From a phage, in the sequence record PX880100.1: a DNA stretch of 64,000 nt; one strand, given 5' to 3'. The first letter of the stretch is position 1; every line of letters starts with the position of its first letter. A program made the position numbers and the translations under genes. Positions 30,469 through 36,668 of this stretch are shown here, piece after piece. A model generated the notes under the pieces. It was not told where the DNA came from. It searched no databases and saw only the letters and a program-made list of their open reading frames with translations.

Positions 30469-31107
30469 ATGACCACTCGTATTTCTAAAACTCGTGCTCT
30501 GGCAACCATCAAATCTCTGGAAGCTAAAATCCGTAAAGCTACTGAACAACAGCTTCTGATCGCTGTTGGTGAAGGTAAGGATAAAAACCAGGTTGTAGTT
30601 GGCGCTGCAATCGAAGTAGCTGATCTGTCTACTCGTATTAAGACTGATTTCCAGTCTCTGCTGGATATGATGTCCCAGCGCGATCGTATCAAAGCTGCTC
30701 TGATTAAAAGCAATGCGGAAACAATCGTTGAGATTGGCTCTCGTAAGATGACTGTTGCGGAAGCAATTGAAGCTAAGCGTTCTATGGAACTTAAAGCTCA
30801 ACTGCTGGCTAACATGCGTAAGCAGTTCCATGCCGCTACAGTTAAGTTTAATGCGCAGAAAGCACAGTTTGATGCTAAATATGAGCGTTTGCAGGATAGC
30901 ATGGCTACCCGCGATAAGAAAACTTCCGAAGATGAAGTTAAAATGCAGCTCAACCTGCTGGAACTCAAGAATACTCCATTCTTGATTGATCCGCTGGAAC
31001 TGGAGAAGCTGATTAAGCAGCATGACGAGGAATACCAGGACTTTGCAACAAATGTTGACTTTGTTCTGTCCGAGTCTAACGCCTCTACCTTCATTGAAGT
31101 AGAGTAA
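30469..31107 (+). CDS. hypothetical coiled-coil protein (212 aa)
   Basis: Track ORF; Ala/Glu/Lys-rich helical sequence. Confidence 0.5.
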   Translation: MTTRISKTRALATIKSLEAKIRKATEQQLLIAVGEGKDKNQVVVGAAIEVADLSTRIKTDFQSLLDMMSQRDRIKAALIKSNAETIVEIGSRKMTVAEAIEAKRSMELKAQLLANMRKQFHAATVKFNAQKAQFDAKYERLQDSMATRDKKTSEDEVKMQLNLLELKNTPFLIDPLELEKLIKQHDEEYQDFATNVDFVLSESNASTFIEVE

Positions 31108-31549: not shown

Positions 31550-31867
31550 ATGACTTTTCATATTTTGATTGATGATGTGCGTAATCTTCACGGAATGGAC
31601 ATTATCATTCGAACCCCAGAAGCCGCTGTAGAGTTTCTGAATAAAACTGATACCACCGGCCATTTCGTTTATATGGATAATGACTTGGCTGTAGATGGTA
31701 TGGAAGGTTATCAAATTCTTCGTTTACTCTTAGAATTTGGGCAGAGACCAAAGAAAGTGGTACTAGTAACCTCGAACCCAGTAGCTAAGCAAAATATGCG
31801 TAATGATTTGCTTGACTTAGGGTATAAAGAAAATCCCAATCGTGTTGAATATGATTGGCAGGAGTAA
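31550..31867 (+). CDS. hypothetical protein (105 aa)
   Basis: Track ORF downstream of promoter. Confidence 0.5.
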   Translation: MTFHILIDDVRNLHGMDIIIRTPEAAVEFLNKTDTTGHFVYMDNDLAVDGMEGYQILRLLLEFGQRPKKVVLVTSNPVAKQNMRNDLLDLGYKENPNRVEYDWQE

Positions 31868-31872
31868 AAAGA

Positions 31873-32322
31873 ATGAAGGCAGCTTTGCTTTTAGTAGCTG
31901 CCCTTACCTTCAGCTTTAGTAGTCAGGCATCGCACGATGCAAAAGAAATAGATTGCATTGCTAAAAATATCTATTTCGAAAGTCGTGGTGAGGGCATAAA
32001 GGGAATGACGGCGATTGCACATGTTACTAAAAACCGTGTAAACTCCGGTAAATTCCCAGATTCCTACTGTAAAGTAGTATATCAGTCTAACCAGTTCTCT
32101 TGGGTATCTAAGAGACCAAAAGTTGATAAAACTGATGAGGCTTGGCAAACCGCTAAGAATTTAGCTAGAGTGATATACTACGTTGATTTACCACAAGATC
32201 CTACATATGGAGCACTTTACTTCCATAGTGGTAAAGATAAACCTTACTGGACAAAGAAGTTTAAGAAAACAACTAAGATTAAGGGACATACGTTTTATAA
32301 ACCTGTTGTCACTAAAACTTAA
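31873..32322 (+). CDS. secreted SleB/CwlJ-like cell-wall hydrolase
   Basis: ATG at 31873 with GGAG RBS; signal peptide MKAALLLVAALTFSFSSQA; conserved segment IAKNIYFESRGEGIKGMTAIAHVTKNRVNSGKFPDSYCKVVYQSNQFSW. Confidence 0.6.
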   Translation: MKAALLLVAALTFSFSSQASHDAKEIDCIAKNIYFESRGEGIKGMTAIAHVTKNRVNSGKFPDSYCKVVYQSNQFSWVSKRPKVDKTDEAWQTAKNLARVIYYVDLPQDPTYGALYFHSGKDKPYWTKKFKKTTKIKGHTFYKPVVTKT

Positions 32323-32390: not shown

Positions 32391-32561
32391 ATGAAATCAG
32401 TTGTAATTATTGGTGTTAACACTCGCGGTATTCGTACTACGAAAACTGTTAAAACTTCCAACGTTGCTGAGATCACTACGAACCCTAAAAAGTTTGATTT
32501 CGCCAAAGTCTCAGCAGTTATGACAGAACAATCTTTTAACCAAGCGTTAGGAATGAAATAA
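32391..32561 (+). CDS. hypothetical small protein (56 aa, below track cutoff)
   Basis: ATG at 32391 with GAGAGGAAG RBS after the promoter; stop overlaps ATG of next gene (TAATG). Confidence 0.5.
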   Translation: MKSVVIIGVNTRGIRTTKTVKTSNVAEITTNPKKFDFAKVSAVMTEQSFNQALGMK

Positions 32562-33004
32562 TGGAAGAGAATATTTTAGATGTTTTGCGTAGAGCTTTGC
32601 AGGATTCTAAGTTTAATGGTTCTGATAAAGAAGTCGCTAAAAGCTATCAGACCATAATCGGGGATCTTCAGCGTATTGATAAAGATTTCATCACTTCTGA
32701 ACAATTTGTGTCTTATCTCAAAGCTCAACTAAAAAGCATTAACCAGATGAAAGCTAAACTTCATGGTCAAGATCTTGATAGTTATAGCTTGCAGTCCGCT
32801 CAGTATGAATACATTCTAAATAAGTGGTTGCAGGAGTATCTGCCTCCTCAGTTATCTGATACTGAGATTCGTAAATACTTTGCAGAATTAGTTAAGCTAA
32901 ACCCTGGAATTACAAAAGGTATGCTGATGAAAGCGATTAAGGAAGAATTTCCTGGGCGTTATGATGGTGGTACTGCTGCTCAGATTGCTGGCGAATTTAA
33001 TTAA
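32561..33004 (+). CDS. hypothetical protein (147 aa)
   Basis: Track ORF; translationally coupled to the upstream small ORF. Confidence 0.5.
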   Translation: MEENILDVLRRALQDSKFNGSDKEVAKSYQTIIGDLQRIDKDFITSEQFVSYLKAQLKSINQMKAKLHGQDLDSYSLQSAQYEYILNKWLQEYLPPQLSDTEIRKYFAELVKLNPGITKGMLMKAIKEEFPGRYDGGTAAQIAGEFN

Positions 33005-33012
33005 AAATTTAT

Positions 33013-33041
33013 TTGCTAAATGCTTATAAATTCTGTATAAT
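33013..33041 (+). promoter_or_regulatory. PN25-type early promoter feeding an ORF-free RNA region
   Basis: TTGCTA, 17-bp spacer, TATAAT, ATATTCATAAATTAGAGAAC; no ORF for the next ~800 bp; approximate. Confidence 0.6.
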
Positions 33042-33264
33042 ATATTCATAAATTAGAGAACAGCGAGCCGATTACGCTGAGTGCAGAATCCCAACCGGAG
33101 CGCATTGAATAGAGTCGGTGGGTTAGTTGTAAAACTAGTACACAGGGGGCGGCAATCCCGGTTAGTGGCTAGAACGTGTAAAATGAGGCGTCTGAAACCT
33201 CTCCCCTAAACTCTTCTCTAATTTATAAATAGTGGGGTGTGGAAATCACTTATGTAGTAACACT

Positions 33265-33336
33265 GCCGTCCTAGTATAATTGGTATTATCAAGCCGTAAC
33301 TGGTGGAAGATGTAGGTTCGAATCCTACGGTCGGTA
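33265..33336 (+). ncRNA. tRNA-like element (T-arm and acceptor stem present, anticodon arm not foldable by eye)
   Basis: GTAGG-TTCGAAT-CCTAC T-arm and GCCGTCC/GGTCGGT acceptor pairing (one mismatch); no convincing anticodon stem; possible pseudo-tRNA. Confidence 0.3.
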
Positions 33337-33838
33337 AGAACTGGATAACTGATGCTTTTAACGTAAAAGCTTCCGAGGTTAGTTGCGCACTGCCTAAACC
33401 ACGCGGTAGTTGGTTCCAGACTAACCAACCAGTCTGCTGAATAGTTTTATTACGATTTAACTATGTCCAGGCTAAAGAAGAACTTTAGAAGGTATTCTAG
33501 GATAGTGAAGTTCTTTCTCCACATCGGAGTAGTTTTTCAAGCTATCCACAAAGTGGGAAATGCTGACATGAGAGATGTCACTAATGGTGCACAATAGCAC
33601 AGGTAATTCGCGATAATTCCTGTTGAGTAGCAGCAAAAGGCGGGAAGTCATGACCCCAAGCCTAACCGAGTCCTCAATATACCGCAGGACATAACCACTA
33701 AGTCACCCTGACTTAAACTGGAAAATAATAGACGTTACTGTATTTTGTCTTGAAATACTTAATGAGTGAGACTTATGACTCTCCCGGTATCGTCTGTATT
33801 TTTAAGAGTTTTTACGAGAGTTCTTAAAAATACTTAAA

Positions 33839-33913
33839 CGGGGTGTAGTCTAAGGGAGAGGCAGGAGTCTTCTAAATTCCTTTATGCAGGTTCGAATCCT
33901 GTCACCTCGGCCA
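33839..33913 (+). tRNA. tRNA-Arg (anticodon UCU)
   Basis: Acceptor CGGGGTG/CACCTCG, D-arm GTCT..AGGC, anticodon arm GGAGT-CTTCTAA-ATTCC, T-arm GCAGG-TTCGAAT-CCTGT, encoded CCA. Confidence 0.7.
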
Positions 33914-33947
33914 ATTTTATTAACTGTAACTAAAACAAAGGAAATAT

Positions 33948-34895
33948 ATGTTTAATACTAAAAATATGAAAGAACTGACTTCTGAGCAGAAAGTAATTCG
34001 TACTATTAAACGTTGGGGGATTGGTGCTGTAGTTGGTTTAGCAGGTTTAGTTCTAGCTCTTAACTCCTATACCGTTGTTCAAGACGGTACTGTTAAGACC
34101 CAGACTTTCTTGGGTAAAGTTGATCCTAATCCAGTATTACCTGGTTTCCATGTTGTAAATCCTTTTGCTTCTTTTGATACTTTTAGTACTAAAGATATTG
34201 CTCTAAAATTAGATAAACTTCAGGTTCCTAGTCAGGATAAGTTTAAATCCACTGTTGACCTGACTGTTATGTTGCAGTTTGATGGTTCTAAAGCACCGAT
34301 TAACCGTATTAATGCAGGTAATCAGGATCAAGCGTTAGACAAATATGTAACTGAAAAATTACTGTCTACTATTCGTGAGTTTGGTAAGTCTGTACCTAAA
34401 GCACAAGATTTATTTGATGCTAAAATTCAGGCTCAATTGCAAACTGCAATTCAACAGGAAGTTGAAGAGTATGCACGCCCATATGGTTACACAGTTAAGC
34501 AGGTGTTCCTTCAGGATATTACTTTGCCACCGGTAATCATGGAACAGGTACAGAATACCAAAGTTCGTGAAGAACAGGTTAATGCTGCTAAAGCTGAATT
34601 AGCTCGTGTTGAACAGGAAGCACAGCAAAAAGTTAAACAAGCAGAAGCAGATCGTGAAGCTCGCAACAACCAAGCTATTGCTAATGAACGTGACGCAGAT
34701 GCTAAACTGTACGCAGCTAAGAAAGAAGCTGAAGCTAACGCCGCATTGCAACGTACCATTACTCCTGAGATGATTCGCTGGAAGCAACTGGAAGTTGAAA
34801 TGATCCGTGCTCAGAAGTATCAAGGTGGTGTACCACAGACGGTAGTTGGTACTGGTTATGATGGCCAAATGATCATGGATATGCGTAATAAATAA
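33948..34895 (+). CDS. SPFH/band-7 (prohibitin/HflC-like) membrane protein
   Basis: 315 aa; N-terminal TM helix (WGIGAVVGLAGLVLALN), central SPFH-like region, C-terminal coiled coil rich in A/E/Q/K/R. Confidence 0.6.
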   Translation: MFNTKNMKELTSEQKVIRTIKRWGIGAVVGLAGLVLALNSYTVVQDGTVKTQTFLGKVDPNPVLPGFHVVNPFASFDTFSTKDIALKLDKLQVPSQDKFKSTVDLTVMLQFDGSKAPINRINAGNQDQALDKYVTEKLLSTIREFGKSVPKAQDLFDAKIQAQLQTAIQQEVEEYARPYGYTVKQVFLQDITLPPVIMEQVQNTKVREEQVNAAKAELARVEQEAQQKVKQAEADREARNNQAIANERDADAKLYAAKKEAEANAALQRTITPEMIRWKQLEVEMIRAQKYQGGVPQTVVGTGYDGQMIMDMRNK

Positions 34896-34919
34896 TACCC
34901 GCATGTAACATCTGAAGTA

Positions 34920-34954
34920 AGCCCTGCGTTTCCTGGAGAGCGCAGGGCTTTTCT
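34920..34954 (+). terminator. rho-independent terminator
   Basis: AGCCCTGCG...CGCAGGGCT hairpin followed by TTTCT; approximate. Confidence 0.6.
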
Positions 34955-34991
34955 ATATAATGTAATTATAAAACTAACTAGGAGATTAAAC

Positions 34992-35510
34992 ATGGGTGTT
35001 GATGAATTAACACAGCATCTTCTATCTAGAGGATTTGATGCAGATAAATATCATTGCTGGTTAAGTCCGGAAGGATGGCTAACAGTCCCGTTGTATGATT
35101 TCTCTGGGATGTTGAGGGGCTATCAAACTTATAATCCTTCTGCTCCAAAAGGTCATGGTAAGTATCCCTTTGAAGCTAAATATTTTACCTATTCTACTAC
35201 CCAGTGTGTATGGGGATTAGAAACTCTCAATGGAGATGAAAAAGTAGTATTGATCGCTGAATCTGTATTTAAGGCAGTTGCGTTACATAACGCTGGTTAT
35301 CCAGCCCTAGCAATGTTGGGTTCTTCTCCAGGAAAAGCGTTATTAAAGCAACTGAAATTATTACCTTTTAAATTGGTAGCTGTCGGGGATAACGATCCTG
35401 CGGGTGAAAAATTTGCTAGAAAATTAAACGGCTTTGTTTCTCCTGTAGATGTGGATGAGATGTCTACCGAAAACTTGAAAAATTTTCTTGCTATGAAGCT
35501 AAATTTCTAA
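34992..35510 (+). CDS. hypothetical protein (172 aa)
   Basis: Track ORF with GGAGA RBS. Confidence 0.5.
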   Translation: MGVDELTQHLLSRGFDADKYHCWLSPEGWLTVPLYDFSGMLRGYQTYNPSAPKGHGKYPFEAKYFTYSTTQCVWGLETLNGDEKVVLIAESVFKAVALHNAGYPALAMLGSSPGKALLKQLKLLPFKLVAVGDNDPAGEKFARKLNGFVSPVDVDEMSTENLKNFLAMKLNF

Positions 35511-35626: not shown

Positions 35627-35704
35627 GGTTCTCAAGCTCATATGGTATGAGCACCCAGCTCATAACTGGAAGGTACGTAGGTTCGAATCCTCGGGGAGCC
35701 ACCA
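35627..35704 (+). tRNA. tRNA with CAU anticodon (Met or Ile2 type)
   Basis: Acceptor GGTTCTC/GGGAGCC with G-U pairs, D-arm GCTC..GAGC, anticodon loop CTCATAA, encoded CCA; T-stem has two mismatches, so fold is uncertain. Confidence 0.5.
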
Positions 35705-36301: not shown

Positions 36302-36469
36302 ATGTATAGACCTCCACCTCCGCCAACACGTCGTTCTAGAGAAGTTATCCTCATGGAATTGACTAAAAACTTCAAGGCAACTCTTGAAGATAGAGATTTA
36401 GGCACGGATGAAGACATTGATTTTATTTGTAGACTATTAAAGATGAAACTGGAGAAACAACATGGCTAA
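36302..36469 (+). CDS. hypothetical small protein (55 aa, below track cutoff)
   Basis: ATG at 36302 with AAGGAAATAAG RBS right after the tRNA; proline-rich N-terminus; overlaps the next ORF start. Confidence 0.5.
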   Translation: MYRPPPPPTRRSREVILMELTKNFKATLEDRDLGTDEDIDFICRLLKMKLEKQHG

Positions 36470-36668
36470 TCCTGAAATTACCGCACAACGTTTCATGCTT
36501 AAAGGCATGATTGCTGAAGCAGGTATGACTCAAGAGGTTGCAGACTTTCATAAGCAAATTCTTGATATTATAACTCTAGCTAAAGAGACTGGAGAAAAAG
36601 AGCACGCAGCAGCAATTATGGCTATATCTCTTATTAGTCTAGACTTGGCTGAAGAATCTGGAGTTTAG
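36462..36668 (+). CDS. hypothetical protein (68 aa)
   Basis: Track ORF. Confidence 0.5.
   Translation: MANPEITAQRFMLKGMIAEAGMTQEVADFHKQILDIITLAKETGEKEHAAAIMAISLISLDLAEESGV

What the first reader, a model, noticed from the sequence alone, without database searches (positions are those of the whole stretch)
33948..34895. SPFH/band-7 (prohibitin-like) membrane protein encoded among the tRNA genes
The 315-aa product has one N-terminal TM helix, an SPFH-like core and a long A/E/Q/K-rich coiled coil, the architecture of HflK/C-type membrane scaffolds. In phages such proteins could modulate host FtsH-type proteolysis or membrane microdomains.
Basis: partly seen in the sequence, partly recalled or inferred. 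Interest (0 to 1): 0.35.

Follow-up and report, generated by a model that had tools for sequence, protein, structure and literature searches.

The report
Phage T5-type SPFH membrane scaffold gene
This is a real, strongly conserved gene for a prohibitin/HflK-like membrane scaffold protein (the ortholog of phage T5 gene T5.080); the family was already recognised in annotation, but nobody knows what it does for the phage.

Summary
ORF 33948-34895 (+) encodes a 315-aa protein with a significant Pfam Band_7 match (E 2.4e-17, 64 bits against a 23.6-bit cut-off). It has one N-terminal TM helix (aa ~23-42), an alpha/beta SPFH core, a 76-residue helix and a conserved C-terminal tail. The AlphaFold model matches cage-forming SPFH proteins over its full length (erlin, prohibitin, HflK/C, stomatin, QmcA). 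The window is a T5-like phage and the gene is the 97%-identical ortholog of T5.080. The common "lipoprotein" label is wrong: the protein has no cysteine. It is not an HflK or HflC ortholog. It belongs to a compact stand-alone clade found in Gammaproteobacteria and exchanged among unrelated large lytic phages (723 phage records). dN/dS is 0.03-0.19. A basic N-tail predicts a periplasm-facing orientation. The gene is co-transcribed with tRNA-Arg and directly abuts the anti-retron gene rad. A published knockdown screen scored T5.080 "Not Fit", and a natural deletion exists, so it is an accessory gene. Most likely it forms a homo-oligomeric cage on the inner membrane. Its client is unknown and FtsH is only a candidate. 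The identity is already known, so interest is modest.

The parts
33013..33041 (+). Sigma-70-like promoter (TTGCTA-17-TATAAT), positional equivalent of T5 promoter P16-17; likely start of the transcript that carries the gene
   Evidence: Consensus scan, 10 of 12 matches. T5 annotates promoter P16-17 at the same relative position, overlapping the end of T5.081. Function is inferred, not shown.
33005..33838 (+). ~830-nt non-coding leader, equivalent to T5 'RNAX' (stable RNA of unknown function); contains a tRNA-like element at 33265-33336
   Evidence: No convincing ORF here. T5 annotates RNAX between P16-17 and tRNA-Arg. Rfam tRNA match of 35.5 bits (gathering 29) at 33265-33336, missed by ARAGORN.
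33839..33913 (+). tRNA-Arg(tct), 34 nt upstream of the SPFH start codon, same strand, no terminator between them
   Evidence: ARAGORN; Rfam tRNA 49.3 bits; same arrangement in T5, slur09 and NG_S8.
33938..33942 (+). Shine-Dalgarno AAGGA, 5 nt before the ATG
   Evidence: Read directly from the sequence.
33948..34895 (+). SPFH/Band-7 protein gene, 315 aa plus stop; ortholog of T5.080
   Evidence: ORF; Pfam Band_7 E 2.4e-17; phrog_200 E 2.3e-85; 97% identical to T5.080; dN/dS 0.03-0.19.
33948..34013 (+). Basic N-terminal tail (aa 1-22; 6 K/R against 2 D/E), predicted cytoplasmic
   Evidence: Across 30 family members the N-tail has at least 2 K/R in 27, with mean net charge +2.8 against +0.7 for the 20 residues after the TM. 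Orientation is inferred from the positive-inside rule.
34014..34073 (+). Single transmembrane helix (aa ~23-42, WGIGAVVGLAGLVLALNSYT)
   Evidence: Kyte-Doolittle 19-mer mean 1.81; helix 12-39 in the model; an N-terminal hydrophobic segment in 115 of 118 close homologs.
34074..34523 (+). Alpha/beta SPFH core (aa ~43-192)
   Evidence: Pfam Band_7 over aa 52-225; strands and helices at 41-192 in the AF2 model; Foldseek matches to SPFH domains.
34530..34757 (+). Long continuous helix (aa 195-270, 76 residues), the wall helix (CC1) of SPFH cages
   Evidence: AF2 helix 195-270 with pLDDT 76-91; A/E/Q/K/R-rich; aligns with the long helices of erlin, prohibitin and HflK/C.
34764..34892 (+). Second helix (aa 273-290) and conserved C-terminal tail (aa 291-315, GGVPQTVVG...MDMR), the presumed cap-forming region
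   Evidence: Helix 273-290, with the tail at pLDDT below 50 in the monomer model. The tail is nevertheless nearly invariant across the family: Y291, G293, V295, P296, T298, G301, G306, D311, R313 are at least 90% conserved. The cap role is inferred by analogy.
34919..34950 (+). Intrinsic terminator hairpin (13-bp stem, 7 G-C pairs, then a T-run), 24 nt after the stop codon
   Evidence: Terminator scan. T5 annotates an 'efficient bidirectional rho-independent terminator' after T5.080.
34992..35510 (+). Neighbour, not part of the gene: Toprim protein, ortholog of T5.076 / SP15 ORF75 = Rad, an experimentally shown anti-retron protein
   Evidence: Pfam Toprim_2; T5.076 labelled 'subverts retron-mediated defense'; Azam et al. 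bioRxiv 10.1101/2023.03.15.532788; SP15 map.

Best explanation
The gene encodes a single-pass inner-membrane SPFH scaffold, the T5.080 ortholog. It is made early in infection from a transcript that also carries tRNA-Arg. The short basic N-terminus stays in the cytoplasm. The SPFH core, the ~11-nm wall helix and the conserved C-terminal tail face the periplasm, which is the same orientation as HflK/C, prohibitin and erlin. Like every structurally solved SPFH protein, it most likely assembles into a closed ring or cage that fences off a patch of host inner membrane together with whatever membrane proteins lie inside. Here the cage would be a homo-oligomer, because no paralog or partner gene accompanies the gene. 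It is an accessory, conditionally useful function, not part of core replication or assembly. What is shown: family membership, fold, the membrane anchor, purifying selection, horizontal spread among unrelated lytic phages, and dispensability on a lab host. What is inferred: the orientation, oligomerisation into a cage, and early co-transcription. What is unknown: the enclosed client. FtsH is a candidate by analogy only. A role in protecting or insulating the membrane against superinfection, colicin-type or abortive-infection damage is at least as likely.
For: Family and fold: Band_7 E 2.4e-17. AF2 model at pLDDT 76.5 with TM, SPFH core, a 76-aa helix, a second helix and a tail. The top 37 Foldseek PDB hits are all SPFH cage subunits at full length: erlin1/2 7e-15, PHB1/2 1.9e-13, HflK/C 5.6e-12, stomatin 8.8e-12, QmcA 7.4e-10, flotillin 1e-8. 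Orientation: the basic N-tail is conserved (27 of 30 sequences with at least 2 K/R; net +2.8 against +0.7), whereas the cytoplasm-facing QmcA has no N-tail at all (sequence). Homo-oligomer: the gene is single in every context examined, and there is no NfeD among the window neighbours. The C-terminal tail is nearly invariant although it is disordered in the monomer model, as expected for an assembly interface. Selection and spread: dN/dS 0.03-0.19; 723 phage records across T5-like, RB16/RB43/KP27-type T4-like (83% identical over aa 39-313), Aeromonas T4-like, SE131-like and Vibrio phages. Accessory status: T5.080 scored 'Not Fit' with 7 guides in the CRISPRi-ART screen (PMC11879866 supplement); phage NG_S8 carries a natural internal deletion; yet about 431 records have the protein at >=90% identity against about 442 with a T5-type polymerase at >=90%. 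Transcription unit: promoter-like site, tRNA-Arg, gene, strong terminator, matching T5's annotated P16-17, RNAX, tRNA-Arg, T5.080, terminator. Envelope-themed neighbours recur: a signal-peptide Hydrolase_2 cell-wall hydrolase within 8 kb in four phage backgrounds; rI/rI.-1 lysis-inhibition genes immediately upstream in RB16; a TerC/TelA/TerF/TerD cluster in an uncultured ~150-kb phage.
Against: No experiment on this protein or any phage SPFH was found, and papers state that the function is unknown. Orientation rests only on the positive-inside rule, and the closest E. coli paralog by sequence is QmcA, which faces the cytoplasm. Oligomerisation could not be modelled. The neighbour associations are weak: some of the phage backgrounds may share the region by descent, the T4-like location is a hypervariable region, and the T5 location is simply the phage's accessory-gene region. 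A 'Not Fit' score also fits a gene with no function on E. coli K-12, and that screen has a known false-negative rate.
Confidence: 0.6

Rival explanations
1. FtsH modulator. The phage cage encloses or competes for host FtsH through FtsH's periplasmic domain, as HflK/C does, changing the turnover of host or phage membrane proteins during infection.
For: The architecture and predicted periplasmic orientation match HflK/C and prohibitin, which partner FtsH-type AAA proteases (fold hits 7vhq, 7wi3 and 9cz2 to FtsH-HflK/C complexes; orientation). From established knowledge, QmcA, the closest E. coli paralog, is also genetically linked to FtsH/HtpX.
Against: It is not an HflK/HflC ortholog: no NCBIfam hit, 0.8 bits on HflK and 18.7 on HflC, and hhalign aligns only ~45 N-terminal columns. 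All carriers found are large phages of lytic groups, in which I know of no FtsH-controlled lysis-lysogeny switch such as lambda CII. No ftsH gene was seen next to the chromosomal homologs. Knockdown has no fitness effect on the lab host.
Confidence: 0.2
2. Membrane-protection, exclusion or counter-defence factor. The cage stabilises or insulates the inner membrane against damage from superinfecting phage DNA entry, pore-forming colicins, or membrane-depolarising abortive-infection effectors, or it tunes lysis timing.
For: The gene directly abuts an experimentally defined anti-defence island containing rad, tRNA-Tyr and an anti-Ec83 pair. It is accessory but kept in nearly all close T5 relatives. 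It spreads horizontally among unrelated lytic phages, as counter-defence genes typically do. It lies next to a Ter-type membrane-stress cluster, rI/rI.-1 lysis-inhibition genes and secreted cell-wall hydrolases. In Morganella the chromosomal homolog lies beside a microcin-type export cluster.
Against: All of this is guilt by association. PADLOC gave no hit. The ADI study does not mention the gene, and in SP15 it lies beyond the last mapped ADI genes. No SPFH protein has a demonstrated anti-defence or exclusion role in the literature searched.
Confidence: 0.3
3. Cytoplasm-facing stomatin/QmcA-type scaffold. The N-terminus is outside and the SPFH domain faces the cytoplasm, organising phage replication, assembly or injection-related complexes at the inner face of the membrane.
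For: QmcA is the best-scoring solved and E. coli homolog by sequence (E 1.8e-6; 31.7 bits).
Against: QmcA's TM starts at residue 2 with the basic residues after it (sequence). This family has a 6-22-residue basic tail before the TM. There is no NfeD partner nearby, whereas qmcA is paired with ybbJ.
Confidence: 0.15
4. Lipoprotein, as labelled in RefSeq T5.080, PHROG 200 and many GenBank records.
For: Only the inherited annotation.
Against: The protein contains no cysteine, so no lipobox is possible. 112 of 118 close homologs also lack cysteine, and only one has a lipobox-like motif.
Confidence: 0.01

Closest known systems
Phage T5 gene T5.080 (YP_006908; PHROG phrog_200)
   Same: It is the ortholog: 97% amino-acid identity, the same 315-aa length, and the same order tRNA-Arg, gene, terminator. 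Other GenBank records already label the homolog 'SPFH domain / Band 7 family protein'.
   Different: The window, like phage Es2, lacks the 1.9-kb T5.077-T5.079 block, so here the gene directly abuts rad (T5.076). The RefSeq 'lipoprotein' label is wrong for both.
E. coli HflK/HflC (FtsH-regulating SPFH cage, PDB 7vhq/7wi3/9cz2)
   Same: N-terminal TM, SPFH core, long wall helix and C-terminal cap region; a full-length structural match (E 5.6e-12); the predicted periplasm-facing orientation.
   Different: It is not orthologous (no NCBIfam hit; 0.8 and 18.7 bits). It is a single gene instead of a two-gene heteromer, lacks HflK's long N-terminal extension, and has no shown link to FtsH.
E. coli QmcA (stomatin-type SPFH, PDB 8z5g, partner NfeD YbbJ)
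   Same: The best sequence match among solved structures and E. coli paralogs, a similar length (305 against 315 aa), and a homo-oligomeric assembly (26 chains in the entry).
   Different: No NfeD partner gene. A basic N-terminal tail predicts the opposite orientation. Similarity is only about 31 bits.
Eukaryotic prohibitin 1/2 and erlin 1/2 cages (PDB 9o9z, 8rrh, 9vvj)
   Same: The top structural matches (7e-15 to 1.9e-13), with sequence-level hits to PHB2 and PHB1. From established knowledge, they share an N-terminal anchor with the bulk on the non-cytosolic side.
   Different: They are hetero-oligomers of two paralogs in eukaryotic organelles, at only 16-19% identity.
Other virus-encoded SPFH proteins (Vibrio, Rhizobium and Streptomyces phages; jumbo RaK2-like phages; Marseillevirus, Tupanvirus, Pandoravirus)
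   Same: The same fold and size: 31 BFVD entries at E <= 1e-3. Their function is equally uncharacterised.
   Different: Mostly 13-22% identical, so they are separate acquisitions from different SPFH branches.

Membership tests
SPFH / Band 7 superfamily (Pfam PF01145) | Significant match to the Band_7 profile above the curated gathering score | tested here: met
   E 2.4e-17 and 64 bits against a 23.6-bit cut-off, over aa 52-225; PF01145 is precomputed on nearly all listed homologs.
SPFH / Band 7 superfamily (Pfam PF01145) | Alpha/beta SPFH core followed by long alpha-helical (CC) region | tested here: met
   AF2 model; full-length Foldseek matches to erlin, prohibitin, HflK/C, stomatin, QmcA and flotillin.
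SPFH / Band 7 superfamily (Pfam PF01145) | N-terminal membrane anchor | tested here: met
   Hydrophobic segment at aa 23-42, Kyte-Doolittle mean 1.81; present in 115 of 118 close homologs.
SPFH / Band 7 superfamily (Pfam PF01145) | Assembly into a large ring or cage oligomer | not testable with these tools
   Only a monomer could be modelled. The C-terminal tail is nearly invariant yet has low confidence in the monomer model, which is indirect support.
HflK/HflC (regulators of FtsH) | Sequence membership (NCBIfam HflK/HflC models; similarity to E. coli HflK/HflC) | tested here: not met
   No NCBIfam family at E <= 1. The family profile scores 0.8 bits on HflK and 18.7 bits on HflC. hhalign aligns only ~41-49 N-terminal columns.
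HflK/HflC (regulators of FtsH) | Two adjacent paralogous genes forming a heteromer | tested here: not met
   A single SPFH gene in the window and in every phage and chromosomal context examined. E. coli has adjacent hflK-hflC.
HflK/HflC (regulators of FtsH) | Type II topology with the bulk in the periplasm | tested here: inconclusive
   Predicted from the conserved basic N-tail, but there is no experimental topology.
HflK/HflC (regulators of FtsH) | Physical association with FtsH | not testable with these tools
   Needs pull-down or cryo-EM.
QmcA / stomatin-type SPFH with NfeD partner | Adjacent NfeD-family partner gene | tested here: not met
   No NfeD Pfam hit among 10 window neighbours or in the Pfam-annotated context of homolog P0025. 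E. coli qmcA is followed by ybbJ (NfeD).
QmcA / stomatin-type SPFH with NfeD partner | TM at the extreme N-terminus with basic residues after it (cytoplasm-facing) | tested here: not met
   QmcA begins MLIFIPILIF.... This family has a 6-22-aa basic tail before the TM.
Bacterial lipoprotein (the inherited annotation) | Lipobox with an invariant cysteine after a signal peptide | tested here: not met
   Zero cysteines in the protein; 112 of 118 close homologs have none.
Known anti-phage defence system components (PADLOC) | Match to a PADLOC-DB profile | tested here: not met
   No family at E <= 1.

The most novel reading that the evidence does not exclude
The phage SPFH protein is a new kind of counter-defence or exclusion device. 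It would be a periplasm-facing homo-oligomeric cage, traded horizontally among unrelated lytic phages and parked beside the T5 anti-defence island. It would work by physically compartmentalising the host inner membrane, either by sequestering FtsH or another membrane client, or by shielding the membrane from pore-forming abortive-infection effectors, colicins or superinfecting phages.
Probability: 0.2. Interest if true: 0.7.

Novelty: already known. Interest (0 to 1): 0.3.

Why it matters
SPFH cages are currently under intense structural study, as shown by the 2022-2026 cryo-EM structures of HflK/C, QmcA, prohibitin, erlin, stomatin and flotillin. Their physiological roles in bacteria are still unclear. 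A phage-encoded, single-gene, strongly conserved SPFH protein is kept by almost all T5 relatives. It has moved between unrelated lytic phage families at about 80% identity, yet it is dispensable on a lab strain. That is the signature of a host-interaction or counter-defence gene, and it offers a simple homo-oligomeric system for asking what an SPFH cage encloses. On the practical side, the widespread 'lipoprotein' annotation of T5.080 and PHROG 200 should be corrected to 'SPFH domain membrane protein'. As a discovery it is modest, because the domain assignment was already in databases and in a 2006 paper.

Tried and rejected
(1) Lipoprotein label: rejected, because the protein has no cysteine.

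(2) HflK/HflC orthology or recent capture from the host: rejected.

(3) Known defence-system component: no PADLOC hit.

(4) A functional link between the SPFH gene and tRNA genes: rejected as a general feature. The tRNA neighbourhood occurs only in the T5 lineage. In RB16 the gene follows rI/rI.-1. In 44RR it follows tk. In SE131 and the ~90-kb phages it follows an ATPase. In an uncultured ~150-kb phage it follows TerD.

(5) An NfeD partner: none found.

(6) Gene context of distant metagenomic representatives (P0125, P0133, P0141, P0160): the contigs are too short to be informative.

(7) Chromosomal homologs as prophage genes: rejected. They sit in ordinary chromosomal contexts with no conserved partner across genera.

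(8) Literature on 'T5.080', 'SPFH + bacteriophage T5', 'SPFH + phage-encoded', 'SPFH + anti-phage', and T5 deletion mutants: no functional study turned up. One search was unproductive, and two calls failed on term length.

(9) The first structure job was lost on the server and two fold searches failed. The job was re-run successfully.

(10) Whether the gene lies inside the published ~8-kb anti-defence island: it could not be settled from the text. The SP15 map suggests it lies at or just beyond the edge.

Full report
**Observation.** The ORF exists exactly as described: 33948..34895 on the + strand, ATG start, 315 aa. An AAGGA Shine-Dalgarno lies 5 nt upstream of the ATG. ARAGORN finds 24 tRNA genes on the + strand between 33839 and 43887. 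tRNA-Arg(tct) ends 34 nt before the start codon, and tRNA-Ser(gct) lies 640 nt downstream of the stop. Pfam Band_7 (PF01145) matches at E 2.4e-17 and 64 bits against a gathering score of 23.6, over aa 52-225.

**What the window is.** The region is 95-97% identical to T5-like phages (Tequintavirus, Demerecviridae), best to Escherichia phage Es2. The gene is the ortholog of T5.080, at 97% amino-acid identity. T5.080 is annotated 'lipoprotein; similar to AEH1ORF064C and 44RRORF098C; contains single transmembrane domain'. Other records already call the homolog 'SPFH domain / Band 7 family protein'. Pfam SPFH hits for the RB43, 44RR and Aeh1 homologs were tabulated in 2006 (PMC1524935). So the identity of the gene is already known.

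**Structure.** AlphaFold2 on a 30-sequence family alignment gave a model with mean pLDDT 76.5. It has:
- a TM helix at aa 12-39
- an alpha/beta core at aa 41-192
- one uninterrupted helix at aa 195-270 (76 residues, about 11 nm)
- a second helix at aa 273-290
- a low-confidence tail at aa 291-315

Foldseek against the PDB returns only cage-forming SPFH proteins in the first 37 ranks, aligned over 270-306 columns: erlin1/2 at 7e-15, prohibitin 1/2 at 1.9e-13, HflK/C at 5.6e-12, stomatin at 8.8e-12, QmcA at 7.4e-10 and flotillin at 1e-8. The C-terminal tail is disordered in the monomer model, yet it is among the most conserved parts of the family. That fits the cap or assembly role this region plays in solved SPFH cages, which is an inference.

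**Which SPFH it is.** It is not HflK or HflC. NCBIfam gives no hit. A profile of the phage family scores 31.7 bits on E. coli QmcA, 18.7 on HflC, 0.8 on HflK and below zero on YqiK. hhalign aligns only the N-terminal ~45 columns to HflK and HflC. PDB sequence searches find QmcA (1.8e-6) and prohibitins but not HflK/C. An exhaustive HMMER scan of 1.84 billion cluster representatives finds only 888 at E <= 1e-3 and 164 at E <= 1e-10, so this is a compact clade within a very large superfamily.

A scan of GTDB species genomes shows chromosomal members in Morganella and Providencia (56-59% identity) and in Methylococcaceae, Methylophagaceae and other Gammaproteobacteria (31-42%). These are stand-alone genes in ordinary chromosomal neighbourhoods. 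No NfeD- or FtsH-like gene was recognisable next to them, by inspection of ORFs without a Pfam scan.

**The 'lipoprotein' label is wrong.** The protein has no cysteine. 112 of 118 close homologs have none either, and only one has a lipobox-like motif.

**Topology.** The 22-residue N-tail carries 6 K/R against 2 D/E. Across 30 family members the tail has at least 2 K/R in 27, with mean net charge +2.8 against +0.7 for the 20 residues after the TM. By the positive-inside rule this predicts N-in and C-out, placing the SPFH domain in the periplasm. From established knowledge (Chiba, Ito and Akiyama 2006, recalled and not re-read), that is the orientation of HflK/C, and QmcA has the opposite one. 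QmcA's TM begins at residue 2. This is a prediction, not a demonstration.

**Evolution.** dN/dS against T5-like orthologs is 0.03-0.19. Against RB16-type, ~150-kb and ~90-kb phage homologs it is 0.06-0.15, with saturated dS. tblastn finds the protein in 723 phage records:
- T5-likes at >=90% identity
- RB16/RB43/KP27/Lw1-type T4-likes at 83% over aa 39-313, with a replaced N-terminus
- SE131-like phages at 72%
- Aeromonas T4-likes at about 60%
- Vibrio phages at 33-46%

Such high identity between otherwise unrelated phage families indicates horizontal transfer. All named hosts are Gammaproteobacteria. BFVD shows that many other viruses, including giant viruses, carry unrelated SPFH branches.

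**Transcription unit.** The unit consists of a promoter-like site at 33013-33041, about 800 nt of non-coding RNA, tRNA-Arg, the gene, and a 13-bp-stem terminator at 34919-34950. This mirrors T5's annotated P16-17, RNAX, tRNA-Arg, T5.080 and bidirectional terminator.

**Context.** The tRNA neighbourhood is T5-specific. Elsewhere the gene sits as follows:
- In RB16 it follows rI and rI.-1, the lysis-inhibition genes.
- In 44RR it follows tk.
- In SE131 and the ~90-kb phages it follows an ATPase, with RtcB-like and cREC-like genes nearby.
- In an uncultured ~124-153-kb phage it lies between a TerC/TelA/vWA-TerF/TerD cluster and a Hydrolase_2 gene.

Clustering the neighbours of 18 representative loci shows that a secreted Hydrolase_2 cell-wall hydrolase recurs within 8 kb in four phage backgrounds, including the window (ORF 31855-32322), but not in the T4-likes. 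These associations point towards the cell envelope, but they are weak.

The immediate downstream gene (34992-35510, Toprim) is the ortholog of T5.076 and SP15 ORF75, known as Rad. Rad is an experimentally shown anti-retron protein in an ~8-kb 'Anti-Defense Island' that also holds tRNA-Tyr and an anti-Ec83 gene pair. Deletion mutants of that island are viable. In SP15 and T5 the T5.077-079 block separates rad from the SPFH gene. The window lacks that block, so the two genes are only 97 nt apart.

**Dispensability.** In the CRISPRi-ART transcriptome-wide screen of T5, T5.080 was targeted by 7 guides and scored 'Not Fit' (fitness -4.28, p 0.85; PMC11879866 supplement). Epseptimavirus NG_S8 has a natural internal deletion that leaves only fragments. 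Yet the gene is retained in roughly 431 records at >=90% identity, against roughly 442 records with a T5-type DNA polymerase at >=90%. These counts come from identity bands and are approximate.

**Interpretation.** The best-supported reading is an early, accessory, single-pass inner-membrane SPFH scaffold that forms a homo-oligomeric, probably periplasm-facing cage. Its client is unknown. I give FtsH modulation about 0.2 and a membrane-protection, exclusion or counter-defence role about 0.3; these are refinements of the main explanation and not alternatives to it. The literature explicitly states that phage SPFH function is not understood, and no functional study was found.

**Verdict.** The feature is already known in databases, though often mislabelled, and its function is an open but low-profile question. 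Interest: 0.3.

Noticed in passing
window 33265-33336 (+) and 35627-35701 (+): Two tRNA-like genes score above Rfam's tRNA gathering score (35.5 and 38.2 bits against 29), but ARAGORN did not call them. The first lies inside the non-coding 'RNAX'-equivalent leader. The second sits directly after tRNA-Ser(gct), where T5 has tRNA-Ile2(CAU). The window therefore holds at least 26 tRNA-like genes, not 24.
   Followed up: partly
window 33005-33838 (+): An ~830-nt stretch without a credible ORF lies between the YqeY-like gene and tRNA-Arg. It corresponds to T5 'RNAX', annotated as a 719-nt stable RNA of unknown function. Apart from the embedded tRNA-like element, no Rfam family matched.
   Followed up: partly
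window 34896-34991 (junction between the SPFH gene and ORF 34992-35510): The window and phage Es2 lack a ~1.9-kb opposite-strand block (T5.077-T5.079; two to three ORFs of unknown function) that T5, slur09, SP15 and most relatives carry here. This is an indel polymorphism at the edge of the anti-defence island, next to a T5 nick site.
   Followed up: partly
window 34992-35510 (+); also 36302-36469 and 36462-36668 (+): The 172-aa Toprim ORF is the ortholog of T5.076 / SP15 ORF75 (Rad), a published anti-retron protein often mis-annotated as 'DNA primase'. The two small ORFs correspond by position to SP15 ORF73 and ORF72, reported as jointly neutralising retron Ec83. The window therefore carries the T5-family Anti-Defense Island.
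   Followed up: partly
window 31550-31867, 31855-32322, 32391-32561, 32561-33004 (+): Four genes lie upstream: a cREC_REC 'cyclic-phosphate processing receiver' domain protein (E 3.8e-15), a signal-peptide Hydrolase_2 (SleB-type) cell-wall hydrolase annotated 'endolysin', a DUF7616 protein, and a weak YqeY-like protein annotated 'tRNA amidotransferase'. The cREC + Hydrolase_2 + SPFH trio also occurs in a ~90-kb phage (L037), next to an RtcB-like gene.
   Followed up: partly
window 30469-31107 (+): This 212-aa helical, charged protein is annotated 'tail fiber protein' in RefSeq (T5.085, slur09). It sits in the early region, has no Pfam hit, and scored 'Not Fit' in the T5 knockdown screen, so the label looks doubtful.
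   Followed up: no
L006 1-7837, L034, L036 (uncultured ~124-153-kb phage contigs): A large uncultured phage carries a tellurite-resistance-type cluster (TerC, TelA, vWA-TerF-like, TerD) immediately upstream of its SPFH gene, with a Hydrolase_2 gene downstream. It had no close relative in the phage genome collection; the only matches were to the SPFH and TerD genes themselves.
   Followed up: partly
L078 5968-11316 and L075 (Morganella chromosomes): The chromosomal SPFH homolog (56-57% identical) lies next to a microcin-like double-glycine-leader peptide and a CvaA/CvaB-type exporter. In Providencia the flanks differ (DctA-like transporter, LysR regulator, PTS genes).
   Followed up: no
L061 3750-4129 (Escherichia coli phage NG_S8, LC788711): This natural isolate has an internal deletion of the SPFH gene, leaving two small ORFs, the second encoding the last 42 residues.
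   Followed up: yes
P0022, P0056, P0067 and L066: Several 'bacterial' or 'plasmid' records holding the protein on ~174-178-kb contigs (Klebsiella pneumoniae plasmid, Enterobacter asburiae, Flagellimonas marina) look like RB43/RB16-type phage genomes mislabelled as cellular or plasmid sequence. This is judged from contig size and 73-78% identity only.
   Followed up: no
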